Shown one piece after another: positions 1,194-41,831 of a stretch of 64,000 nt of DNA (position 1 is its first letter; the number at the start of each line of letters is the position of its first letter). The position numbers and the translations under genes are program-made. Under the pieces are notes generated by a model that was not told the origin of the DNA, made no database searches, and worked only from the letters and a program-made list of their open reading frames with translations. The DNA is taken from assembly GCF_988243305.1 (NCBI RefSeq), contig NZ_OZ547136.1; one strand, 5' to 3'.

Positions 1194-1254
<61 letters not shown>

Positions 1255-1255
1255 G

Positions 1256-2496
<1,241 letters not shown>

Positions 2497-3020
2497 TGAA
2501 CTGCACCCCAAATGTTGGACATAATCTGACATCTGAAGGTGCAGTTTATGAAACATTCATTTGAAGTAAAACTTGCCGCTGTAAATCATTACCTGGCCGG
2601 TCATGCTGGCATCATTTCTACGGCAAAACTCTTTCAACTTTCTCACACCAGCCTCTCACACTGGATTAATCTTTTTCTTCTTCACGGTCCTCGGGCACTG
2701 GATTGCAGACACAGGCGTAGCTATTCTCCTGAAGATAAACTTTGCGTGGTTCTTTATGCTCTCGGGCATTCTGAGTCTCTACCCCGGGTAGCTGCCCGGT
2801 TTAACATTCCCAGCCACAACACGGTTAAAAACTGGATAAAAGGCTACCGCAAATCTGGTGATGAGGCCTTTATCAGGCGCAGGAAGGAGAAAAGCATGAC
2901 CCGTTCTGATGATACCCATGAAAACGAGGCAAACATGACGCCGGAAGAGATGAAGAATGAGCTGCGTTATCTTCGCGCAGAAAATGCATATCTGAAAGCC
3001 ATGCAGGAGCATCTCCTGGA

Positions 3021-3026
3021 AAAAAA

Positions 3027-3027
<1 letters not shown>
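3021..3027 (+). promoter_or_regulatory. Programmed -1 ribosomal frameshift heptamer A AAA AAG
   Basis: In orfA zero frame; the -1 frame stays open from 3027 into orfB with no stop. Confidence 0.6.
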
Positions 3028-3928
<901 letters not shown>

Positions 3929-3931
3929 ATC

Positions 3932-3995
3932 AGCGTCGCATCAGGCATCCTGCTCAAATGCCGGATGCGGCGTAAACGCCTTATCCTGCCTACAA
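3932..3995. repeat. REP/BIME palindromic units between IS right end and cpxA
   Basis: gcgtcgcatcaggc and gccggatgcggcgtaaacgccttatcc consensus-like REP motifs. Confidence 0.6.
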
Positions 3996-6909: not shown

Positions 6910-7920
6910 TTATAACGTCACTCCGCCTTTTAGTGGATTCAGAGCGACGGCATTTTGCAGATAGTCAGGCGCAAGGTGCGCATAGGCCATCGTCTGCTGA
7001 ATGCTCGCATGTCCCAGAATCTGTTGCAGTGCGATTATATTGCCCCCATTCATCATGAAATGGCTTGCGAATGTATGCCGCAGGATGTGGGTTGCCTGAT
7101 TGGGTGGTATATCAGGTTTCACTCTGCGTAAAATCCCGCAAAATTTCTCATAATCAACTTTGAATAATTTGGCGCTGGCCTCCTCTTTAACTTTTTTCTC
7201 CAGTTCCTCAGAAATCGGCACGGTTCGCTTTTTACCGTTTTTGGTTTTCAGGAAGGTAACCCTGCAATTTGTAATCTGTGCTGGTTTTAGCGTGGCAACT
7301 TCCGTCCATCTTCCTCCGGTGCTCAGACATAAAAGCGCGACAAGTAAGTCATCACCAGCCAAAACATTTAACAGTTTTTCGATTTCTGCTTTTTCCAGGA
7401 ACGTCATTTCAGGGTTGGCCTCCGCCAGTGGCGGCAGTCCGTGAATTGGGTGTTGCCCGGAAAATTCATCCAATTGAATTAATTTTGTGAACATGCCGGA
7501 TAATCGGTACATGTCACGGTTTATCGTTGCGGCACTGATACCATCACGTAGTCGCATGGAACGATAATCCATCAAAGCCCTTTTGCTCATCCTGCTCACT
7601 GGTATATCACCTATGCCGCTGATGGTTTTGAGTAGATGATTAAACTCTTTTGTTCCATGCTCGTGGTTTTGCCCGTGATATTTCCACCAGATGTCCAGCA
7701 ACTCACTCAAAGTCCGGCGGTCTGCTCGCTGGCCTCCCCATTCTTTCTGACTGGCATTGGCGATTGTGTATCGCTCAAATGCTAGTGCTTCAGCTTTTCT
7801 TTCGAATTTCCTGCGGATGCGTTTTCCGTCGCGACCGCGAGGTCTAATGTCCACTTCATAGCGACCATCATCGAGCTTCTTAATTGCCATAAGAAAGCCC
7901 TCCGGCGCTGTATTCACCAT
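6910..7920 (-). CDS. int: P2-type tyrosine integrase
   Basis: 336 aa, adjacent to attL, C-terminal R..H..R..Y catalytic-domain pattern (HILRHTFASH...AYAHL). Confidence 0.9.
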   Translation of the reverse strand: MVNTAPEGFLMAIKKLDDGRYEVDIRPRGRDGKRIRRKFERKAEALAFERYTIANASQKEWGGQRADRRTLSELLDIWWKYHGQNHEHGTKEFNHLLKTISGIGDIPVSRMSKRALMDYRSMRLRDGISAATINRDMYRLSGMFTKLIQLDEFSGQHPIHGLPPLAEANPEMTFLEKAEIEKLLNVLAGDDLLVALLCLSTGGRWTEVATLKPAQITNCRVTFLKTKNGKKRTVPISEELEKKVKEEASAKLFKVDYEKFCGILRRVKPDIPPNQATHILRHTFASHFMMNGGNIIALQQILGHASIQQTMAYAHLAPDYLQNAVALNPLKGGVTL

Positions 7921-10146: not shown

Positions 10147-10418
10147 GTATTCGTATTGAAATTGGCGAACGTTATGTCGTTACCAGTGACAGCTTTCAGT
10201 TTATTCTCCACGAGAAAAAGAGAGCGGAAAGCGGTAAAAACGCCGGTCAGGAATGGCTGGCGGTGGTTGGTTATTACCCGAAATTAGGCCAGCTCGTTTC
10301 CGGCCTGATGCATCACGATATTCTGACCGGAAGCGCAAAATCTTTTGCTGATTTAAACGCGCAGGTTGAGCAACTCAGCAAGCGTTGTTCAGAGGCTTTT
10401 GGCTCATATGGCCGTTAA
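10143..10418 (+). CDS. Hypothetical early protein
   Basis: 91-aa ORF overlapping gene A start. Confidence 0.45.
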   Translation: MSIRIEIGERYVVTSDSFQFILHEKKRAESGKNAGQEWLAVVGYYPKLGQLVSGLMHHDILTGSAKSFADLNAQVEQLSKRCSEAFGSYGR

Positions 10419-12684
10419 AGCCTCCGGGCGTTTTGTCCCTCCGTCAGCATTTACCGCAGGCACCGGTAAGGCGTTTACCGGTGCTTATGCATGGAACGCG
10501 CCACGCGAGGATGTCGGGCGCGAAAGACCTCTTACACGTGACGAGATGCGTCAGGTGCAAGGTGTTTTATCCACGATTAACCGCCTGCCTTACTTTTTGC
10601 GCTCGCTGTTTACTTCACGCTATGACTACATCCGGCGCAATAAAAGCCCGGTGCACGGGTTTTATTTCCTCACATCTACTTTTCAGCGTCGTTTATGGCC
10701 GCGCATTGAGCGTGTGAATCAGCGCCATGAAATGAACACCGACGCGTCGTTGCTGTTTCTGGCAGAGCGTGACCACTATGCGCGCCTGCCGGGAATGAAT
10801 GACAAGGAGCTGAAAAAGTTTGCCGCCCGTATCTCATCGCAGCTTTTCATGATGTATGAGGAACTCTGCGATGCATGGGTTGATGCGCATGGTGAAAAAG
10901 AATCGCTGTTTACGGATGAGGCGCAGGCTCACCTGTATGGTCATGTTGCTGGCGCTGCACGTGCTTTCAATATTTCCCCGCTCTACTGGAAAAAATACCG
11001 TAAAGGACAGATGACCACGAGGCAGGCATATTCTGCCATTGCCCGCCTGTTTAACGATGAGTGGTGGATTCATCAGCTTAAAGGCCAGCGTATGCGCTGG
11101 CATGAGGCGTTACTGATAGCTGTCGGGGAGGTCAATAAAGACCGTTCTCCTTATGCCAGTAAACACGCCATTCGTGATGTGCGTGCGCGCCGCCAGGCAA
11201 ATCTGGAATTTCTTAAATCGTGTGACCTTGAAAACAGGGAAACCGGCGAGCGCATCGACCTTATCAGTAAGGTGATGGGCAGTATTTCTAATCCTGAAAT
11301 TCGCCGGATGGAGCTGATGAACACCATTGCCGGTATTGAGCGTTACGCCGCCGCAGAGGGTGATGTGGGGATGTTTATCACGCTGACCGCGCCGTCAAAG
11401 TATCACCCGACACGTCAGGTCGGAAAAGGCGAAAGTAAAACCGTTCAGCTTAATCACGGCTGGAACGATGAGGCATTTAATCCAAAGGATGCGCAGCGTT
11501 ATCTCTGCCGTATCTGGAGCCTGATGCGCACGGCATTCAAGGATAATGATTTACAGGTCTACGGTTTGCGAGTCGTCGAGCCACACCACGACGGAACGCC
11601 GCACTGGCATATGATGCTTTTTTGTCATCCACGCCAGCGTAACCAGATTATCGAAATCATGCGTCGCTATGCGCTCAAAGAGGATGGCGACGAAAGAGGA
11701 GCCGCGCGAAACCGTTTTCAGGCAAAACACCTTAACCGGGGCGGTGCTGCGGGATATATCGCGAAATACATTTCAAAAAACATCGACGGCTATGCACTGG
11801 ATGGTCAGCTCGATAACGACACCGGCAGGCCGCTGAAAGACACTGCAGCGGCTGTTACCGCATGGGCGTCAACGTGGCGCATTCCGCAATTTAAAACGGT
11901 TGGCCTGCCGACAATGGGGGCTTACCGTGAACTACGCAAATTGCCTCGCGGCGTCAGCATTGCTGATGAGTTTGACGAGCGCGTCGAGGCTGCACGCGCC
12001 GCCGCAGACGGTGGTGATTTTGCGCTGTATATCAGCGCGCAGGGCGGGGCAAATGTCCCGCGCGATTGTCAGACTGTCAGGGTCGCCCGTAGTCTGTCGG
12101 ATGACGTTAACGAGTACGAGGAAGAAGTCGAGAGAGTGGTCGGCATTTACGCGCCGCATCTCGGCGCGCGTCATATTCATATCACCAGAACGACGGACTG
12201 GCGCATTGTGCCGAAAGTTCCGGTCGTTGAGCCTTTGACTTTAAAAAGCGGCATCGCCGCGCCTCGGAGTCCTGTCAATAACTGTGGAAAGCTCACCGGT
12301 GGTGATACTTCGTTACCGGCTCCCACACCTTCTGAGCACGCCGCAGCAGTGCTTAATCTGGTTGATGACGATGTTATCGAATGGAATGACCCGGAGGTCG
12401 TGAGGGCGCTCAGGGGCGCATTAAAACACGACCGGAGAACGCCAAACCGTCAGCAAAGAAACGGAAGCCCGTTAAAACCGCATGAAATTGCACCATCGGC
12501 CAGACTGACCCGGTCGGAACGATTGCAAATTACCCGTATCCGCGTTGATCTCGCTCAGAACGGTATCAGGCCGCAACGATGGGAGCTTGAGGCGCTGGCG
12601 CGTGGCGCGACCGTAAATTATGACGGGAAACCTTTCACTTATCAGGTCGCTGATGATTGGCCGGGATTTTTGTTACCCATTTGA
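10408..12684 (+). CDS. P2 gpA-type rolling-circle replication initiator endonuclease
   Basis: ~758 aa from ATG 10408 (ORF-track frame opens 10366); HxH and tyrosine-containing motifs (PHHDGTPHWHMMLF, AGYIAKYISKN). Confidence 0.85.
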   Translation: MAVKASGRFVPPSAFTAGTGKAFTGAYAWNAPREDVGRERPLTRDEMRQVQGVLSTINRLPYFLRSLFTSRYDYIRRNKSPVHGFYFLTSTFQRRLWPRIERVNQRHEMNTDASLLFLAERDHYARLPGMNDKELKKFAARISSQLFMMYEELCDAWVDAHGEKESLFTDEAQAHLYGHVAGAARAFNISPLYWKKYRKGQMTTRQAYSAIARLFNDEWWIHQLKGQRMRWHEALLIAVGEVNKDRSPYASKHAIRDVRARRQANLEFLKSCDLENRETGERIDLISKVMGSISNPEIRRMELMNTIAGIERYAAAEGDVGMFITLTAPSKYHPTRQVGKGESKTVQLNHGWNDEAFNPKDAQRYLCRIWSLMRTAFKDNDLQVYGLRVVEPHHDGTPHWHMMLFCHPRQRNQIIEIMRRYALKEDGDERGAARNRFQAKHLNRGGAAGYIAKYISKNIDGYALDGQLDNDTGRPLKDTAAAVTAWASTWRIPQFKTVGLPTMGAYRELRKLPRGVSIADEFDERVEAARAAADGGDFALYISAQGGANVPRDCQTVRVARSLSDDVNEYEEEVERVVGIYAPHLGARHIHITRTTDWRIVPKVPVVEPLTLKSGIAAPRSPVNNCGKLTGGDTSLPAPTPSEHAAAVLNLVDDDVIEWNDPEVVRALRGALKHDRRTPNRQQRNGSPLKPHEIAPSARLTRSERLQITRIRVDLAQNGIRPQRWELEALARGATVNYDGKPFTYQVADDWPGFLLPI

Positions 12685-16424: not shown

Positions 16425-17459
16425 TCAGCCGTTGTCGGTGTCCAGTGAGTAGTTTTTAAAGCGGATGACCTCCTGACCGAGCCAGCCGTTTATCTCGCGG
16501 ATCCTGTCCTGTAACGGGATAAGCTCATTGCGGACAAAGACCTTTGCCACTTTCTCAATATCACCCAGCGACCCGACGTTCTCCGGCTTGCCGCCCATCA
16601 ACTGAAAAGGGATGCGGTGCGCGTCCAGCAGGTCTGCGGCGCTGGCTTTTTTGATATTAAAAAAATCGTCCTTCGTTGCCACTTCACTGAGCGGGATAAT
16701 TTTAATGCCGTCGGCTTTCCCTTGCGGGGCATAGAGAAACAGATTTTTAAAGTTGTTGCGGCCTTTCGACTTCACCATGTTTTCGCGGAGCATTTCGATA
16801 TCGTTGCGATCCTGCACGGCATCAGTGACGTACATGATGTATCCGGCATGTGCGCCGTTTTCGTAATACTTGCGGCGGAACAGCGTGGCCGACTCATTCA
16901 GCCAGGCAGAGTTAAGGGCGCTGAGATATTCCGGCAGGCCATACAGCTCCTGATTAATATCCGGCTCCAGCAGGTGAAACACGGAGCCGGGCGCGAAAGG
17001 TGTCGGCTCATGGAAGGACGGCACCCACCAGTAAACATCCTCTTCCACGCCACGGCGGGTATATTTTGCCGGTGAGGTTTCCAGTCTGATGACCTTACCG
17101 GTGGTGCTGTAACGCTTTTCCAGAAACGCATTACCGAACACCAGAAAATCCAGCACAAAGCGGCTGAAATCCTGCTGGGAAAGCCACGGGTGCGGAATAA
17201 ACGTTGAAGCCAGAATATTACGTTTGACGTAAATCGGTGAGCTGTGATGTACGGCAGCACGCAGGCTTTTTGCCAGACCGGTAAAGCTGACCGGTGGCTC
17301 ATACCATCTGCCGTTACTGATGCACTCGACGTAATCCAGAATGTCACGGCGGTCGAGTACCGGCACCGGTTCACCAAAGGTGAATGCCTCCATTTTCGGG
17401 GCGCTGGCGGTCATTTTTTTTGCCGCAGGTTGCGGTGTTTTCCCTTTTTTCTTGCTCAT
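16425..17459 (-). CDS. Portal protein (P2 gpQ)
   Basis: 344 aa, P2 order and size. Confidence 0.9.
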   Translation of the reverse strand: MSKKKGKTPQPAAKKMTASAPKMEAFTFGEPVPVLDRRDILDYVECISNGRWYEPPVSFTGLAKSLRAAVHHSSPIYVKRNILASTFIPHPWLSQQDFSRFVLDFLVFGNAFLEKRYSTTGKVIRLETSPAKYTRRGVEEDVYWWVPSFHEPTPFAPGSVFHLLEPDINQELYGLPEYLSALNSAWLNESATLFRRKYYENGAHAGYIMYVTDAVQDRNDIEMLRENMVKSKGRNNFKNLFLYAPQGKADGIKIIPLSEVATKDDFFNIKKASAADLLDAHRIPFQLMGGKPENVGSLGDIEKVAKVFVRNELIPLQDRIREINGWLGQEVIRFKNYSLDTDNG

Positions 17460-20317: not shown

Positions 20318-21391
20318 ATGCGCCAGGAAACCCGCTTTAAATTTAATGCCTACCTGTCCCGTGTTGCCGAACTGAACGGCATCGACGCCGGTGATGTGTC
20401 GAAAAAATTCACCGTTGAACCGTCGGTCACCCAGACCCTGATGAACACCATGCAGGAGTCCTCTGACTTTCTGACCCGCATCAACATTGTGCCGGTCAGC
20501 GAAATGAAAGGGGAAAAAATTGGCATCGGTGTCACCGGCTCCATCGCCAGCACCACCGACACCGCCGGTGGCACCGAGCGTCAGCCGAAGGACTTCTCGA
20601 AGCTGGCGTCAAACAAGTACGAATGCGACCAGATTAACTTCGATTTTTATATCCGCTACAAAACGCTGGACCTGTGGGCGCGTTATCAGGATTTCCAGCT
20701 CCGTGTCCGTAACGCCATTATCAAACGCCAGTCCCTTGATTTAATCATGGCCGGTTTTAACGGCGTGAGGCGTGCCGAAACCTCTGACCGCAGCAGCAAT
20801 CCGATGCTGCAGGATGTGGCGGTCGGCTGGCTGCAGAAATACCGCAATGAAGCCCCGGCGCGCGTGATGAGCAAGGTCACTGACGAGGAAGGACACACCA
20901 CCTCTGAGGTTATCCGCGTGGGTAAGGGCGGTGATTATGCCAGCCTTGACGCACTGGTGATGGATGCGACCAACAACCTGATTGAGCCGTGGTATCAGGA
21001 AGACCCTGACCTTGTGGTGATTGTGGGACGTCAGCTACTGGCGGACAAGTATTTTCCCATCGTCAACAAGGAGCAGGACAACAGCGAAATGCTGGCCGCT
21101 GACGTCATCATCAGCCAGAAACGCATCGGTAACCTGCCGGCGGTACGCGTCCCGTACTTTCCGGCGGATGCGATGCTCATCACAAAGCTGGAAAACCTGT
21201 CCATCTACTACATGGATGACAGCCATCGCCGCGTGATTGAGGAAAACCCGAAACTCGACCGCGTGGAGAACTACGAGTCAATGAACATTGATTACGTGGT
21301 GGAAGACTACGCCGCCGGTTGTCTGGTGGAAAAAATTAAGGTCGGTGATTTCTCCACACTGGCTAAAGCGACCGCAGAGCCGGGAGCGTAA
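20318..21391 (+). CDS. Major capsid protein (P2 gpN)
   Basis: 357 aa. Confidence 0.9.
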   Translation: MRQETRFKFNAYLSRVAELNGIDAGDVSKKFTVEPSVTQTLMNTMQESSDFLTRINIVPVSEMKGEKIGIGVTGSIASTTDTAGGTERQPKDFSKLASNKYECDQINFDFYIRYKTLDLWARYQDFQLRVRNAIIKRQSLDLIMAGFNGVRRAETSDRSSNPMLQDVAVGWLQKYRNEAPARVMSKVTDEEGHTTSEVIRVGKGGDYASLDALVMDATNNLIEPWYQEDPDLVVIVGRQLLADKYFPIVNKEQDNSEMLAADVIISQKRIGNLPAVRVPYFPADAMLITKLENLSIYYMDDSHRRVIEENPKLDRVENYESMNIDYVVEDYAAGCLVEKIKVGDFSTLAKATAEPGA

Positions 21392-33691: not shown

Positions 33692-33843
33692 CGTTTCCGA
33701 AAAATCTGTCGGTCGATGACCTGATGGCGGATGTGGCAGTGATATTTCACTGGCCGCCATCAGAACTGTATCCCATGAGTCTGACCGAACTCATCACATG
33801 GCGCGAAAAGGCGCTCCGGCGAAGCGGAAACACGAATGAGTAA
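33416..33843 (+). CDS. gpE+E' frameshift fusion product
   Basis: TTTTTTG slippery run at ~33664..33670; -1 frame open to TAA at 33841..33843. Confidence 0.6.
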
Positions 33844-36283
33844 CAATGTAAAATTACAGGTATTGCTCAGGGCTGTTGACCAGGCATCCCGCCCGTTTAA
33901 ATCCATCCGTACAGCGAGCAAGTCGCTGTCGGGGGATATCCGGGAAACACAAAAATCACTGCGCGAGCTGAACGGTCACGCATCCCGTATTGAGGGATTT
34001 CGCAAGACCAGCGCACAGCTTGCCGTGACTGGTCATGCACTTGAAAAGGCACGGCAGGAAGCCGAAGCCCTTGCCACACAGTTTAAAAACACTGAACGTC
34101 CGACCCGTGCTCAGGCGAAAGTGCTGGAATCCGCAAAGCGTGCGGCGGAGGACTTACAGGCGAAATATAACCGCCTGACAGATTCCATTAAACGCCAGCA
34201 GCGGGAACTGGCCGCTGTGGGAATTAATACCCGCAATCTTGCACATGATGAGCAGGGACTGAAAAACCGTATCAGTGAAACCACCGCACAGCTTAACCGT
34301 CAGCGTGACGCGCTGGCGCGTGTCAGTGCACAACAGGCAAAACTTAACGCAGTAAAACAGCGTTATCAGGCCGGAAAGGAACTGGCCGGAAATATGGCCT
34401 CAGTGGGCGCTGCCGGTGTGGGGATTGCTGCTGCGGGAACGATGGCCGGAGTTAAGCTGCTGATGCCCGGTTATGAGTTTGCGCAGAAAAACTCAGAATT
34501 GCAGGCTGTGCTCGGTGTGGCAAAAGACTCCGCCGAAATGGCTGCACTACGCAAGCAGGCGCGCCAGCTCGGCGACAATACCGCAGCCTCGGCAGATGAT
34601 GCAGCCGGTGCGCAGATTATTATTGCGAAAGCCGGTGGGGATGTTGATGCCATTCAGGCGGCAACGCCGGTCACGCTGAATATGGCGCTGGCGAACCGTC
34701 GCACGATGGAAGAAAACGCCGCCCTGCTGATGGGGATGAAATCCGCCTTTCAGCTTTCAAACGATAAGGTCGCTCATATCGGGGATGTTCTCTCCATGAC
34801 GATGAACAAAACCGCCGCCGATTTTGACGGCATGAGCGATGCGCTGACCTATGCCGCACCTGTGGCAAAAAATGCCGGTGTCAGCATTGAAGAAACCGCC
34901 GCAATGGTCGGGGCGCTGCATGATGCAAAAATTACAGGCTCAATGGCGGGGACGGGAAGCCGTGCCGTGTTAAGTCGCCTGCAGGCACCAACGGGAAAAG
35001 CATGGGATGCACTCAAAGAGCTTGGTGTGAAAACCTCAGACAGTAAGGGAAACACCCGACCAGTATTTACCATTCTGAAAGAAATGCAGGCCAGTTTTGA
35101 GAAAAACCGGCTCGGTACTGCCCAGCAGGCTGAATACATGAAAACCATTTTCGGGGAGGAGGCCAGTTCAGCCGCCGCCGTGCTGATGACTGCCGCCTCA
35201 ACCGGAAAGCTGGACAAACTGACCGCTGCGTTTAAAGCCTCAGACGGAAAGACCGCAGAACTGGTAAATATCATGCAGGACAACCTCGGAGGTGACTTTA
35301 AGGAGTTTCAGTCCGCTTATGAGGCGGTGGGGACTGACCTGTTTGACCAGCAGGAAGGCGCACTGCGTAATCTCACGCAGACGGCCACAAAGTATGTGTT
35401 AAAACTCGACGGCTGGATCCAGAAAAACAAATCACTGGCGTCAACCATCGGCATCATTGTCGGTGGCGCGCTGGCGCTTATTGGCATCATCGGTGCCATT
35501 GGTCTTGTAGCCTGGCCGGTTATCACCGGCATCAATGCCATTATCGCGGCAGCAGGCGCAATGGGGGCAATCTTCACGACGGTTAGCAGTGCTGTTATGA
35601 CCGCCATCGGGGCGATTAGCTGGCCGGTTGTGGCCGTGGTGGCCGCCATTGTCGCCGGGGCGTTGCTTATCCGTAAATACTGGGAGCCTGTCAGCGCATT
35701 CTTTGGCGGTGTGGTTGAAGGGCTGAAAGCGGCATTTGCGCCGGTGGGGGAGCTGTTCACGCCACTGAAACCGGTGTTTGACTGGCTGGGCGAAAAGTTA
35801 CAGGCCGCGTGGCAGTGGTTTAAAAACCTGATTGCCCCCGTCAAAGCCACCCAGGACACCCTGAACCGTTGTCGTGACACGGGTGTCATGTTCGGGCAGG
35901 CACTGGCTGACGCGTTGATGCTGCCGCTTAATGCGTTCAACAAACTGCGCAGCGGTATTGACTGGGTACTGGAAAAACTCGGTGTTATCAACAAAGAGTC
36001 AGACACACTTGACCAGACCGCCGCCAGAACTCAAGCCGCCACGTATGGCAGCGGTGGTTATATTCCGGCGACCAGCTCTTATGCAGGCTATCAGGCTTAT
36101 CAGCCGGTCACGGCACCGGCTGGCCGCTCTTATGTGGACCAGAGTAAAAACGAATATCACATCAGCCTGACGGGTGGCACTGCGCCGGGGACACAGCTTG
36201 ACCGCCAGTTACAGGATGCGCTCGAAAAATACGAGCGGGATAAACGTGCGCGCGCCCGTGCCAGCATGATGCATGACGGTTAA
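33836..36283 (+). CDS. Tail tape measure protein (P2 gpT)
   Basis: 815 aa, coiled-coil N-terminus, Gly/Ala-rich hydrophobic segments. Confidence 0.9.
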   Translation: MSNNVKLQVLLRAVDQASRPFKSIRTASKSLSGDIRETQKSLRELNGHASRIEGFRKTSAQLAVTGHALEKARQEAEALATQFKNTERPTRAQAKVLESAKRAAEDLQAKYNRLTDSIKRQQRELAAVGINTRNLAHDEQGLKNRISETTAQLNRQRDALARVSAQQAKLNAVKQRYQAGKELAGNMASVGAAGVGIAAAGTMAGVKLLMPGYEFAQKNSELQAVLGVAKDSAEMAALRKQARQLGDNTAASADDAAGAQIIIAKAGGDVDAIQAATPVTLNMALANRRTMEENAALLMGMKSAFQLSNDKVAHIGDVLSMTMNKTAADFDGMSDALTYAAPVAKNAGVSIEETAAMVGALHDAKITGSMAGTGSRAVLSRLQAPTGKAWDALKELGVKTSDSKGNTRPVFTILKEMQASFEKNRLGTAQQAEYMKTIFGEEASSAAAVLMTAASTGKLDKLTAAFKASDGKTAELVNIMQDNLGGDFKEFQSAYEAVGTDLFDQQEGALRNLTQTATKYVLKLDGWIQKNKSLASTIGIIVGGALALIGIIGAIGLVAWPVITGINAIIAAAGAMGAIFTTVSSAVMTAIGAISWPVVAVVAAIVAGALLIRKYWEPVSAFFGGVVEGLKAAFAPVGELFTPLKPVFDWLGEKLQAAWQWFKNLIAPVKATQDTLNRCRDTGVMFGQALADALMLPLNAFNKLRSGIDWVLEKLGVINKESDTLDQTAARTQAATYGSGGYIPATSSYAGYQAYQPVTAPAGRSYVDQSKNEYHISLTGGTAPGTQLDRQLQDALEKYERDKRARARASMMHDG

Positions 36284-36297
36284 GGAGGTGACGAAAA

Positions 36298-36777
36298 ATG
36301 ATGCTCGCGTTAGGTATGTTTGTTTTTATGCGCCAGACGCTGCCACACCAGACCATGCAGCGTGAATCAGATTATCGCTGGCCGTCAAATTCCCGTATCG
36401 GTAAACGGGATGCCTACCAGTTTCTCGGTGTTGGCGAGGAAAACATGACGCTTGCCGGTGTGCTTTATCCCGAACTGACCGGCGGCAAGCTGACGATGAC
36501 CACGCTCAGGATGATGGCTGAGGAGGGGCGGGCGTGGCCGTTACTGGATGGCACCGGCATGATTTACGGCATGTATGTCATCAGCAGGGTGAGTGAAACA
36601 GGGAGAATTTTCTTTGCAGACGGCACACCCCGAAAAATTGATTTTACGCTGTCGCTCACCCGCGTTGATGAATCACTGGCCGCGCTTTATGGCGATATCG
36701 GTAAACAGGCAGAATCGCTCATCGGTAAGGCTGGCAGTATGGCGACTAAATTCATGGATATGACGGGGGCGGGATAA
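36298..36777 (+). CDS. Tail protein (P2 gpU)
   Basis: 159 aa. Confidence 0.85.
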   Translation: MMLALGMFVFMRQTLPHQTMQRESDYRWPSNSRIGKRDAYQFLGVGEENMTLAGVLYPELTGGKLTMTTLRMMAEEGRAWPLLDGTGMIYGMYVISRVSETGRIFFADGTPRKIDFTLSLTRVDESLAALYGDIGKQAESLIGKAGSMATKFMDMTGAG

Positions 36778-37940
36778 TGCTGGATGCACTGACATTTGAT
36801 GCAGGCAGTACGCTGACGCCGGATTACATGCTGATGCTCGACAGCAGGGATATTACCGGCAATATCAGCGACCGTCTGATGAGCATGACCCTGACGGATA
36901 ACCGGGGCTTTGAGGCTGACCAGCTTGATATTGAACTGAACGATGCCGACGGGCAGGTCGGGCTGCCGGTTCGTGGCGCTGTCCTGACGGTGTATATCGG
37001 CTGGAAAGGTTTTGCCCTGGTATGCAAAGGGAAATTTACCGTTGATGAGGTTGAACACCGGGGCGCGCCGGATGTGGTTACCATCCGCGCCCGGAGTGCA
37101 GATTTTCGCGGGACGCTCAATTCCCGCCGGGAAGGCTCATGGCATGACACCACGCTCGGTGCGATTGTTGAGGCGATAGCCTCCCGTAACAGGCTGGAAG
37201 CCAGTGTCACTCCGTCACTGGCCGGAATTAAAATCCCGCACATCGACCAGTCGCAGGAGTCTGATGCGAAATTCCTGACCCGTCTTGCTGAACGCAACGG
37301 CGGCGAGGTGTCGGTAAAAATGGGAAAACTGTTGTTTCTCAAAGCGGGGCAGGGGGTGACGGCCAGCGGTAAAAAAATCCCGCAGGTCACCATAACCCGC
37401 AGCGACGGCGACCGCCATCATTTTGCGATTGCTGACCGTGGAGCCTATACCGGCGTAACGGCAAAGTGGTTACACACCAAAGACCCGAAACCACAAAAGC
37501 AGAAGGTAAAACTGAAACGCAAAAAGAAAGAAAAACACCTGCGCGCACTGGAGCACCCGAAAGCAAAACCGGTCACGCAGAAGAAAGCGCCAAAAGTACC
37601 GGAAGCGCGCGAAGGTGAATACATGGCCGGTGAGGCTGACAACGTTTTTGCCCTGACTACGGTATATGCCACGAAAGCGCAGGCCATGCGCGCCGCTCAG
37701 GCGAAGTGGGATAAACTGCAACGGGGGGTGGCGGAGTTCTCCATCAGCCTGGCTACCGGTCGGGCTGATATTTACACGGAAACGCCGGTCAGAGTGTCAG
37801 GCTTTAAGCGCGTCATAGACGAGCAGGACTGGACAATTACTAAGGTGACACATTTTCTGAATAATAGCGGCTTCACGACGTCCTTAGAGCTTGAGGTCAG
37901 GCTTTCTGATGTGGAGTACGAAACAGAAGATTATGAGTGA
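36777..37940 (+). CDS. Tail protein (P2 gpD)
   Basis: 387 aa. Confidence 0.85.
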   Translation: MLDALTFDAGSTLTPDYMLMLDSRDITGNISDRLMSMTLTDNRGFEADQLDIELNDADGQVGLPVRGAVLTVYIGWKGFALVCKGKFTVDEVEHRGAPDVVTIRARSADFRGTLNSRREGSWHDTTLGAIVEAIASRNRLEASVTPSLAGIKIPHIDQSQESDAKFLTRLAERNGGEVSVKMGKLLFLKAGQGVTASGKKIPQVTITRSDGDRHHFAIADRGAYTGVTAKWLHTKDPKPQKQKVKLKRKKKEKHLRALEHPKAKPVTQKKAPKVPEAREGEYMAGEADNVFALTTVYATKAQAMRAAQAKWDKLQRGVAEFSISLATGRADIYTETPVRVSGFKRVIDEQDWTITKVTHFLNNSGFTTSLELEVRLSDVEYETEDYE

Positions 37941-39559: not shown

Positions 39560-40522
39560 ATGATTAAGAAAATCGGTGTGTTGACAAGCGGCGGTGATGC
39601 GCCAGGCATGAACGCCGCAATTCGCGGGGTTGTTCGTTCTGCGCTGACAGAAGGTCTGGAAGTAATGGGCATTTATGACGGCTATCTGGGTCTGTATGAA
39701 GACCGTATGGTACAGCTAGACCGTTACAGCGTTTCTGACATGATCAACCGTGGCGGTACGTTCCTCGGTTCTGCGCGTTTCCCGGAATTCCGCGACGAGA
39801 ACATCCGCGCCGTGGCTATCGAAAACCTGAAAAAACGTGGTATCGACGCGCTGGTGGTTATCGGCGGTGACGGTTCCTACATGGGTGCAATGCGTCTGAC
39901 CGAAATGGGCTTCCCGTGCATCGGCCTGCCGGGCACTATCGACAACGACATCAAAGGCACTGACTACACTATCGGTTTCTTCACTGCGCTGAGCACCGTT
40001 GTAGAAGCGATCGACCGTCTGCGTGACACCTCTTCTTCTCACCAGCGTATTTCCGTGGTGGAAGTGATGGGCCGTTATTGTGGCGATCTGACCCTGGCTG
40101 CGGCCATTGCCGGTGGCTGTGAATTCGTTGTGGTTCCGGAAGTTGAATTCAGCCGTGAAGACCTGGTAAACGAAATCAAAGCGGGTATCGCGAAAGGTAA
40201 AAAACACGCGATCGTGGCGATTACCGAACATATGTGTGATGTTGACGAACTGGCGCATTTCATCGAGAAAGAAACCGGTCGTGAAACCCGCGCAACTGTG
40301 CTGGGCCACATCCAGCGCGGTGGTTCTCCGGTGCCTTACGACCGTATTCTGGCTTCCCGTATGGGCGCTTACGCTATCGATCTGCTGCTGGCAGGTTACG
40401 GCGGTCGTTGCGTAGGTATCCAGAACGAACAGCTGGTTCACCACGACATCATCGACGCTATCGAAAACATGAAGCGTCCGTTCAAAGGCGACTGGCTGGA
40501 CTGCGCGAAAAAACTGTATTAA
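39560..40522 (+). CDS. pfkA: 6-phosphofructokinase I
   Basis: 320 aa from [22 protein letters not shown]. Confidence 0.95.
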
Positions 40523-40574
40523 TGATTTCGGAAAAAGGCAGATTCCTTTAGCCTGAAACCGATGACAGAAGCAA

Positions 40575-40670
40575 AAAGGCCTGATGCGCTTCGCTTATCA
40601 GGCCTACATGAATTCTATAATCTATTGAATTTGCAAACTTTTATAGGTCGGATAAGGCGTTTGTGCCGCA
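40575..40670. repeat. REP/BIME elements between pfkA and sbp
   Basis: gcctgatgcgcttcgcttatcaggcctac and ggataaggcgtttgtgccgcatccggca. Confidence 0.6.
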
Positions 40671-40841
40671 TCCGGCATGGACAAAGCGCACTTTGTCAGC
40701 AATATGAGGCGGATTTCTTCCGCCTTTTTAATCCCCCAACATATACCCGCAAGTTATAGCCAATCTTTTTTTATTCTTTAATGTTTGGTTAACCTTCTGG
40801 CACGCTTTGCTCATCACAACACAACATAAGAGAGTCGGGCG

Positions 40842-41831
40842 ATGAACAAGTGGGGCGTAGGGTTAACATTTTTGCTGGCGGCAACCAGCGTTATGGCAAA
40901 GGATATTCAGCTTCTTAACGTTTCATATGATCCAACGCGCGAATTGTACGAACAGTACAACACGGCATTCAGCGCCCACTGGAAACAGCAAACTGGCGAT
41001 AACGTGGTGATCCGTCAGTCCCACGGTGGTTCAGGCAAACAAGCGACGTCGGTAATCAACGGTATTGAAGCTGATGTTGTCACGCTGGCTCTGGCCTATG
41101 ACGTGGACGCGATTGCGGAACGCGGGCGGATTGATAAAGAGTGGATCAAACGTCTGCCGGATAACTCCGCACCGTACACTTCCACCATTGTTTTCCTGGT
41201 GCGTAAGGGCAATCCGAAGCAGATCCATGACTGGAACGATCTGATTAAACCGGGTGTTTCGGTGATCACGCCTAATCCGAAAAGCTCTGGTGGCGCGCGC
41301 TGGAACTACCTGGCTGCCTGGGGCTACGCGCTGCACCACAACAACAACGATCAGGCAAAAGCGCAGGATTTTGTTCGGGCACTTTATAAAAACGTCGAAG
41401 TTCTGGATTCTGGCGCGCGCGGCTCCACTAATACCTTTGTCGAGCGCGGGATTGGCGATGTACTGATCGCCTGGGAAAACGAAGCTCTGCTGGCAGCGAA
41501 TGAGCTGGGGAAAGATAAATTCGAAATCGTTACGCCGAGTGAGTCTATCCTCGCAGAGCCAACCGTGTCGGTGGTCGATAAAGTGGTCGAGAAAAAAGGC
41601 ACCAAAGAGGTGGCGGAAGCCTACCTGAAATATCTCTACTCGCCAGAAGGTCAGGAAATTGCCGCGAAAAACTACTACCGTCCGCGCGATGCTGAGGTGG
41701 CGAAAAAGTACGAAAATGCGTTTCCAAAGCTGAAGTTATTCACCATTGATGAAGAGTTCGGCGGCTGGACGAAAGCGCAAAAAGAGCATTTTGCTAACGG
41801 CGGTACGTTCGATCAGATTAGCAAACGCTGA
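40842..41831 (+). CDS. sbp: Periplasmic sulfate-binding protein
   Basis: 329 aa with signal peptide. Confidence 0.9.

What the first reader, a model, noticed from the sequence alone, without database searches (positions are those of the whole stretch)
40598..40608. Unoccupied perfect copy of the IS621-type target (ATCAGGCCTAC) in the pfkA-sbp REP
The 11-mer present at the occupied IS621 junction recurs intact in the REP downstream of pfkA. It is a candidate second insertion site for the resident element and a natural control for target preference.
Basis: seen in the sequence. Interest (0 to 1): 0.3.

Follow-up and report, generated by a model that had tools for sequence, protein, structure and literature searches.

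The report
Empty IS621 landing site in REP
The 11-base motif downstream of pfkA is a genuine but ordinary, already documented landing site for the RNA-guided insertion sequence IS621: it is empty in this genome and holds IS621 in about 2% of complete E. coli genomes.

Summary
ATCAGGCCTAC is present once in the window, at 40597-40607 (+), one base left of the stated coordinates. It forms the 3' arm and tail of a REP palindrome in the pfkA-sbp spacer. A complete IS621 lies on the minus strand at 1198-2476. Its recombinase is 326/326 identical to PDB 8WT6 and its bridge RNA region is 174/174 identical to the published wild type. Its junctions (ATCAGGC-CT|IS...CT|AC) rebuild the same 11-mer, so the motif is split there, not intact. 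Chimeric junction queries show IS621 inserted at exactly this pfkA-sbp position in 110-112 of 5,426 complete E. coli genomes. Two of these, strain R1 and FDAARGOS_1059, have the same 14-nt context (…TAC-ATG) as the window. The flank mismatch to the extended guide (GCA) therefore does not block use. Durrant et al. 2024 already established this 11-mer as the natural IS621 target: 129 such sites were hit in BL21(DE3), and their natural-target list contains the 50-nt sequence of this site as found in R1 and K-12. The site holds about 0.8% of IS621-like matches, about what one of ~130 equivalent sites would give.

The parts
40597..40607 (+). Unoccupied IS621 target ATCAGGC-CT-AC: left target 40597-40603, CT core 40604-40605, right target 40606-40607. 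Positions 12-14 are ATG (40608-40610).
   Evidence: Searches give the sequence and its uniqueness. One search shows it is the only CT-core site in the window within one mismatch of the target. Searches show the same position occupied by IS621 in 110-112 genomes.
40577..40607 (+). REP palindromic unit (Z-type by my own knowledge of REP consensus sequences) that carries the target in its 3' arm and tail.
   Evidence: One search finds a 9-nt perfect inverted repeat. One search gives a DNA hairpin of -11.4 kcal/mol, z = -5.95. One search shows the same left part, CTGATGCGCTTCGCTTATCAGGCCTAC, with different right flanks in Durrant's natural-target list (seq404-410 shown), so it is a multi-locus repeat.
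40647..40676 (-). Second, inverted REP-like palindrome (GGTCGGATAAGGCG...GCCGCATCCGGC) that makes the region a composite BIME. It is not a good IS621 target.
   Evidence: One search gives a hairpin of -7.5 kcal/mol, z = -1.95. One search lists no site here within 2 mismatches of the target.
40707..40730 (+). Terminator-like hairpin AGGCGGA/TCCGCCT followed by TTTTT, downstream of the BIME. It is the likely pfkA terminator, so the target would lie inside the pfkA 3' untranslated region.
   Evidence: Searches give -8.1 kcal/mol, z = -4.26. The simple terminator scan did not call it, so this is my reading of the sequence.
1198..2476 (-). Resident IS621, 1279 bp counting one CT core, inserted in the REP between yiiM and cpxA.
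   Evidence: One search gives the junctions and the length. One search shows zero differences from IS621 copies in strains R1, FDAARGOS_1059, M19 and RM10809-3. One search shows the same yiiM-side junction in 142 genomes.
1305..2285 (-). IS621 recombinase gene, 326 aa.
   Evidence: One search finds Pfam DEDD_Tnp_IS110 and Transposase_20. One search shows 326/326 identity to the IS621 transposase of PDB 8WT6.
2286..2459 (-). Bridge RNA coding region. LTG AUCGGGCCU is at 2413-2405, RTG GUAG at 2386-2383, the possible RTG extension UGC at 2389-2387, and the handshake guide AU at 2382-2381.
   Evidence: One search shows 174/174 identity to the wild-type bridge RNA sequence in Durrant's Supplementary Data 1. 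Guide positions are mapped from the numbering in Hiraizumi et al. onto the sequence.
2477..2485 (-). Left half of the occupied target (ATCAGGC plus the CT core) abutting the IS621 left end.
1196..1199 (-). Second CT core copy (1199-1198, counted as the last two bases of the element) and the right target AC (1197-1196) at the IS621 right end. The next three bases, positions 12-14 of this target, are ACT.

Best explanation
The motif is a competent, currently empty target site for the bridge-RNA-guided recombinase of IS621. It exists because it is part of the consensus of one class of E. coli REP elements, which is the sequence IS621's guide has evolved to match. The mechanism is taken from published work and inferred for this copy. 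The resident IS621 excises as a circle. Its bridge RNA's left target guide, AUCGGGCCU, pairs with the bottom strand of ATCAGGCCT, with an rG:dT pair at position 4. Its right target guide, GUAG, pairs with the top-strand CTAC. The recombinase then exchanges strands at the CT core. The element would be inserted between 40605 and 40606, with its left end next to pfkA, in the same orientation as pfkA and sbp. Positions 12-14 (ATG) add no Watson-Crick pairing to the optional guide extension (UGC, which would pair with GCA), and this pairing is not required. The site is one ordinary member of a set of more than 100 equivalent sites per genome.
For: Shown here: (1) The exact 11-mer sits in a REP hairpin. 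(2) The resident element looks intact. Its recombinase is 326/326 identical to PDB 8WT6, its bridge RNA region is 174/174 identical to the wild type, it is 1279 bp with CT at both junctions, and it is identical in sequence to copies at other loci in other strains. (3) IS621 occupies exactly this site in 110 genomes by the left junction and 112 by the right junction, out of 5,426. This was verified base by base in 9 loci. (4) Occupied sites include the window's own 14-mer context, ATG, in R1 and FDAARGOS_1059, as well as GTG and ATT. (5) About 115 genomes lack a contiguous empty site, which matches the occupied count. From the literature: ATCAGGCCTAC is the natural target, 129 such sites were hit in BL21(DE3), the RTG is 4 bp, and extension with GCA is optional. 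The LTG/RTG pairing scheme and the rG:dT pair are. The 50-nt sequence of this site as found in R1 and K-12 is seq407 in Durrant's natural-target list (compared). Among the unique natural ATCAGGCCTAC targets in that file, position 12 is A in 238, G in 294, C in 58 and T in 6.
Against: No occupied genome carries the window's particular spacer haplotype (…TCTATAATCTATTG…). The best right-junction identity is 98.0%. That haplotype is in a minority: 199 genomes are at least 99% identical over 301 nt, and at a 2% rate only about 4 occupied genomes would be expected, so the absence is uninformative. Occupied sites are mostly of the GTG allele (about 92 of 112 by identity class), so G at position 12 may favour use and the window's A allele may be a weaker target. 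Activity of the resident copy in this strain is inferred, not shown.
Confidence: 0.9

Rival explanations
1. The site is refractory in this genome because the bases outside the 11-mer (positions 12-14 are ATG, where the guide extension would pair with GCA), or the divergent spacer, prevent productive pairing. On this view it is a look-alike and not a usable target.
For: Position 12 is A opposite C76, a mismatch. Positions 13 and 14 could form only G·T and U·G wobbles (guide numbering, sequence). Extended RTG pairing improves on-target specificity in reprogrammed guides. Exact-allele counts are at most 917 for GTG, 2,571 for ATG and 275 for ATT, against about 92, 6 and 14 occupied (identity classes). 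That gives roughly 10% occupancy for GTG and 0.2% for ATG.
Against: R1 and FDAARGOS_1059 carry IS621 at this site with the identical 14-mer, ATCAGGCCTACATG. The ATT allele also has A at position 12 and is occupied at about 5-8%, so position 12 alone does not explain the pattern. The resident copy's own site has A at position 12 as well (ACT). In BL21(DE3), 129 sites with the bare 11-mer received insertions and the wild-type RTG is 4 bp. A is at position 12 in 238 of 596 unique natural targets. GTG-class loci have IS and flank divergences compatible with vertical descent from few events, which would inflate that allele's count.
Confidence: 0.07
2. The site is empty because IS621 once sat there and excised precisely. 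IS110-family excision restores LT-CT-RT without a scar, so on this view it is a former site and not a naive one.
For: IS621 moves through a circular intermediate formed by recombination at the two CT cores, which would regenerate exactly ATCAGGCCTAC. An intact resident copy lies 38 kb away.
Against: Scarless excision leaves nothing to detect, so there is no positive evidence. No occupied genome has the window's haplotype. About 98% of genomes are empty at this site, so never occupied is the simpler reading.
Confidence: 0.03
3. The 11-mer is a chance match with no relation to IS621 targeting.
For: A single short motif. Four of 100 shuffles of the window contain one.
Against: It is part of a REP palindrome whose sequence recurs at many loci. 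It is also physically occupied by IS621 in 110-112 genomes.
Confidence: 0.005

Closest known systems
Natural IS621 target sites in E. coli REP elements (Choi, Ohta & Ohtsubo 2003, cited in PMC1525189; Durrant et al. 2024, PMC11208160; Hiraizumi et al. 2024, PMC11208158)
   Same: It has the identical 11-nt target, ATCAGGC-CT-AC, with a CT core and A at position 4 (rG:dT with the guide). It lies in the 3' arm of a REP. The 50-nt sequence of this site as found in R1 and K-12 is in the published natural-target list (seq407), and the locus is occupied in 110-112 complete genomes.
   Different: Nothing mechanistic differs. In this genome the site is empty. Positions 12-14 are ATG and not the best-pairing GCA. 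The spacer after the REP is a minority haplotype (TATAATCT where most genomes have TGCAATTT).
IS1397 / ISKpn1 targeting of REP palindromic units (IS3 family; PMC1525189)
   Same: This is another insertion sequence that specifically lands in E. coli REPs. A copy lies in this window at 2497-3928, in the same REP as the resident IS621.
   Different: IS1397 is a DDE transposase element that inserts in the REP loop and makes a 3-bp duplication (GAT here). IS621 is RNA-guided, inserts at the CT in the 3' stem, and makes no duplication beyond the shared core.
ISPpu9 / ISPpu10 of Pseudomonas putida (IS110 family inserting in REPs; PMC12288879, bioRxiv 10.64898/2026.03.19.712850)
   Same: These are IS110-family bridge-RNA elements that use the host's REP repeats as a multi-copy landing pad.
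   Different: The host, REP consensus and guide sequences are all different. They were not compared here beyond the listed abstracts.

Membership tests
IS621 target site | 11-nt match to the bridge RNA target-binding loop specificity, ATC(A/G)GGC-CT-AC | tested here: met
   Exact ATCAGGCCTAC at 40597-40607. The resident LTG is AUCGGGCCU and the RTG is GUAG.
IS621 target site | CT core dinucleotide at positions 8-9 | tested here: met
   CT at 40604-40605. All nine occupied loci have the element directly after this CT.
IS621 target site | Located in a REP element | tested here: met
   9-bp perfect palindrome, hairpin z = -5.95. It is extragenic, between pfkA and sbp. The same REP left part recurs with different right flanks in the natural-target list. 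The K-12 record in this collection lists no repeat features for this stretch, so there is no curated REP label to cite.
IS621 target site | Actually used by IS621 | tested here: met
   Left junction contiguous in 110 genomes and right junction in 112, out of 5,426. Nine loci were checked base by base, two of them with the identical 14-mer.
IS621 target site | Extended RTG pairing (positions 12-14 are GCA). This is optional and not defining. | tested here: not met
   Positions 12-14 are ATG: 0 of 3 Watson-Crick pairs and 2 possible wobbles. The published wild-type RTG is 4 bp, and 129 sites with the bare 11-mer were used.
IS621 target site | Recombination at this exact sequence by the resident element in this strain | not testable with these tools
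   Needs an in vitro or in vivo assay, or population sequencing.
IS621 (IS110 family) element, for the resident copy | DEDD RuvC-like domain plus Tnp domain recombinase | tested here: met
   Pfam PF01548 (E = 1.5e-24) and PF02371 (E = 2.4e-26). 326/326 identity to PDB 8WT6.
IS621 (IS110 family) element, for the resident copy | Bridge RNA encoded in the left-end non-coding region, with target-binding and donor-binding loops | tested here: met
   174/174 identity to the published wild-type sequence. Rfam 15 gave no match, so it appears to hold no model for this RNA.
IS621 (IS110 family) element, for the resident copy | 1279-bp element bounded by CT cores, with donor halves ACAGTAT-CT and CT-TGTAT at its ends | tested here: met

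The most novel reading that the evidence does not exclude
Natural allelic variation just outside the 11-mer tunes how often a given REP is hit. At pfkA-sbp, the allele with G at position 12 pairs with C76 of the bridge RNA and extends the right target guide. It is occupied in roughly 10% of genomes carrying it, against roughly 0.2% for the K-12 and window-type ATG allele. That would be population-level evidence for extended-RTG selectivity of wild-type IS621. At least three independent insertions (one per flank allele) would also make this REP a recurrent target.
Probability: 0.2. Interest if true: 0.3.

Novelty: already known. Interest (0 to 1): 0.1.

Why it matters
It matters little beyond annotation. 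The result confirms that the window's genome carries an apparently intact IS621 and one perfect empty target 38 kb away. An insertion there would sit between the pfkA stop codon and its likely terminator, in inverted orientation to the resident copy. The two copies would then bracket cpxAR, a P2-like prophage, fieF and pfkA as a segment that homologous recombination could invert. IS621 targeting of this REP motif, the guide rules, and the 50-nt sequence of this site as found in other strains are all already published. The site could serve as a convenient PCR-scorable marker of IS621 activity in this strain, but it is no better than more than 100 other REP sites in the genome.

Tried and rejected
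- **Rfam:** I searched the IS621 region at a permissive E-value and got no match, so the bridge RNA was identified by identity to published sequence instead.
- **Choi et al. 2003:** the original IS621 paper (PMC166490) is not held, so I could not check whether it listed pfkA-sbp.
- **BL21(DE3) insertion map:** Durrant's Supplementary Table 3 is truncated in the held copy and contains no ATCAGGCCTAC string. I could not tell whether this locus was hit experimentally.
- **K-12 annotation:** the K-12 record in this collection shows only CDS features for this stretch, so there is no curated REP label.
- **Promoter and terminator scan:** it found nothing in 40450-40900. The hairpin at 40707-40725 plus its T-run is my reading, supported by folding.
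- **Position 12 as an explanation of occupancy:** I considered it. The ATT allele is also well occupied, and GTG-class loci look vertically related, so the signal is confounded and I do not claim it.
- **Other candidate targets:** the other REP arm (40575-40585, minus strand, ATCAGGCCTTT) and the second REP each have at least 2 mismatches, so I rejected them.

Full report
**Observation.** ATCAGGCCTAC occurs once in the window, at 40597-40607 on the plus strand. That is one base to the left of the stated coordinates. No other copy exists, even with one mismatch allowed. An exact copy is expected 0.04 times per shuffled window. The motif lies in the 319-nt spacer between the pfkA stop codon (40520-40522) and the sbp start (40842). 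Both genes are named from RefSeq annotation under matching DNA. It forms the 3' arm and tail of a perfect 9-bp palindrome, AGGCCTGAT/ATCAGGCCT. That palindrome folds as a DNA hairpin of -11.4 kcal/mol, z = -5.95. A spacer, a second inverted REP-like palindrome (about 40647-40676) and a terminator-like hairpin (40707-40725, followed by five Ts) come next. So this is a composite REP/BIME in the pfkA 3' region.

**The resident element.** A 326-aa ORF at 1305-2285 on the minus strand has both IS110-family domains. It is 326/326 identical to the IS621 transposase of PDB 8WT6.
- Read on the minus strand, the junctions are …cttATCAGGC-CT|TGTATTATCC… and …ACAGTAT-CT|ACactcc. The element is 1279 bp, spanning 2476 down to 1198.
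- Its left-end non-coding region contains the published wild-type bridge RNA sequence, 174/174 identical.
- The numbering of Hiraizumi et al. maps as follows: LTG A50-U58 (AUCGGGCCU) is at window 2413-2405, and RTG G77-G80 (GUAG) is at 2386-2383. Bases U74-G75-C76 (2389-2387) could extend the RTG if the target continued with GCA.
- The 11-mer at the occupied junction is therefore a reconstruction, with nine bases on one side of the element and two on the other. The reconstructed site is ATCAGGCCTAC-ACT and the empty site is ATCAGGCCTAC-ATG.

**Is the empty site really a target?** I built chimeric queries that join the pfkA-side flank ending in ATCAGGCCT to the IS621 left end, and the IS621 right end to ACATGAATTC….
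- Against 5,426 complete E. coli genomes, the left junction is contiguous in 110. The best-listed hits cover 400/400 at 99.8% identity and are annotated 'pfkA | IS621 family transposase'. The right junction is contiguous in 112.
- This matches the roughly 115 genomes in which the empty spacer is not contiguous.
- Nine occupied loci were fetched. All have the order fieF-pfkA-IS621-sbp, with the element directly after ATCAGGC-CT, followed by AC, and in the orientation of pfkA. Eight copies are 1279 bp, and strain C5 has a frameshifted 1277-bp copy.

**The 14-nt context.** Among the occupied loci, positions 12-14 are:
- GTG in ETEC 120899, WAT, KSC207 and RM10809-3
- ATG in R1 and FDAARGOS_1059
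- ATT in M19, C5 and A1

The ATG loci have exactly the window's 14-mer. K-12 MG1655 has the same ATG allele, empty. The literature agrees on several points:
- The wild-type RTG is 4 bp.
- In BL21(DE3), 129 sites with the bare 11-mer received insertions. Together with two ATCGGGCCTAC sites, they account for 96% of detected insertions.
- Pairing with a GCA flank is an optional extension.
- In the paper's list of natural targets, position 12 is A in 238 and G in 294 of 596 unique ATCAGGCCTAC sequences.
- The entry CTGATGCGCTTCGCTTATCAGGCCTACATGAATTCTGCAATTTATTGAAT (seq407) is identical to the R1 and K-12 pfkA-sbp site.

**How special is the site?** IS621-like copies covering at least 80% of the element are present in 1,635 genomes. 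In all there are 13,175 matching places, with a median of 5 per genome that has any. The pfkA-sbp site therefore holds about 0.8% of these places, some of which are partial matches. That is close to 1 in 130, the share expected for one of about 130 equivalent sites. This is my arithmetic, using the BL21 count. The site is an ordinary member of the target set. Within the 64-kb window it is the only CT-core site within one mismatch of the target.

**One insertion or several?** The IS copies of R1, FDAARGOS_1059, M19 and RM10809-3 are identical to each other and to the window's yiiM copy. Their flanks differ by 17-25 positions in 2,300 nt across allele classes, including the bases directly next to the junction.
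- If there had been one ancestral insertion diverging at the flank rate, about 10 differences would be expected in the 1,279-bp element, and none is seen. This is inference, and it ignores recombination and gene conversion.
- At least three independent insertions, one per flank allele, is the simplest reading.
- Within the GTG class, IS and flank divergences are similar, which is compatible with vertical descent.

**Allele and occupancy.** Exact 55-nt empty-site alleles are found in at most 917 genomes (GTG), 2,571 (ATG) and 275 (ATT). These upper bounds may include partial hits from occupied genomes. By identity class, anchored by the nine verified loci, occupied sites number about 92 GTG, 6 ATG and 14 ATT. 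G at position 12 would pair with C76, so the GTG excess could reflect extended-guide preference. However, ATT also has A at position 12 and is well occupied, and the GTG class may be largely one inherited event. I treat this as an unresolved lead, not a result.

**Mechanism (published, inferred for this copy).** The element excises as a circle. The LTG pairs with the bottom strand of ATCAGGCCT, with rG:dT at position 4. The RTG pairs with the top-strand CTAC. The donor-binding loop holds the RE-LE junction, ACAGTAT-CT-TGTAT. Strand exchange occurs at the CT core. Insertion here would place the left end next to pfkA, between the pfkA stop codon and its likely terminator. The new copy would be inverted relative to the resident copy 38 kb away.

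**Verdict.** The finding is ordinary and already known, so interest is low.

**Side observations.**
- The REP between yiiM and cpxA that carries the resident IS621 also carries a 1,432-bp IS1397 (2497-3928) in its loop, with a GAT duplication. No complete genome in the collection has both elements contiguous at this locus.
- A P2-family prophage lies between cpxP and fieF.

Noticed in passing
window 2477-3946 (IS1397 at 2497-3928): The single REP between yiiM and cpxA hosts both REP-specific insertion sequences of E. coli. On the minus strand it reads GCCTGATGCGACGCTGAT[IS1397, 1432 bp, tgaactg…cagttca]GATAGCGTCTTATCAGGCCT[IS621]AC. IS1397 is in the loop with a 3-bp GAT duplication, and IS621 is at the 3' stem CT. 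The yiiM-IS621 junction is shared by 142 genomes and the IS1397-cpxA junction by strain ST2747, but no complete genome has both contiguous. The order in which the two insertions occurred is not resolved.
   Followed up: partly
window ~6910-38300: A P2-family prophage lies between cpxP and fieF. It has an integrase (6910-7920, minus strand), replication protein GPA (10366-12684), a portal protein (16425-17459, minus strand), a P2-type major capsid protein (20318-21391), a tape measure protein (33836-36283) and gpD (36777-37940). ETEC 120899 also has P2-like late genes (gpD, ogrK) directly upstream of fieF, which suggests a shared attachment site. The exact att boundaries were not determined.
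   Followed up: partly
window 40608-40625, compared with L001-L010: The spacer after the target is polymorphic. The window has ATGAATTCTATAATCTATTG, K-12 and R1 have ATGAATTCTGCAATTTATTG, and other strains have GTG… or ATT…. The window haplotype is rare: 199 genomes are at least 99% identical over 301 nt. It is never occupied by IS621. GTG alleles are over-represented among occupied sites, which could reflect pairing of G12 with bridge RNA C76 or simply phylogeny.
   Followed up: partly
window 40578, compared with K-12, R1 and the other occupied loci: The window has G where the other strains have T (AAGGCCTGAT against AATGCCTGAT). This lengthens the perfect REP stem to 9 bp, so that it includes the base opposite the core T. 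The effect on IS621 targeting, if any, is unknown.
   Followed up: no
L005 (E. coli C5, NZ_CP010122.1), locus 1615-2593: The IS621 copy at pfkA-sbp in strain C5 is 1277 bp and is annotated as a frameshifted pseudogene. It is a decayed copy at the same site.
   Followed up: no
window 40707-40730: There is a terminator-like hairpin with a T-run downstream of the BIME. This puts both REPs inside the probable pfkA 3' untranslated region. The simple terminator scan did not report it.
   Followed up: partly
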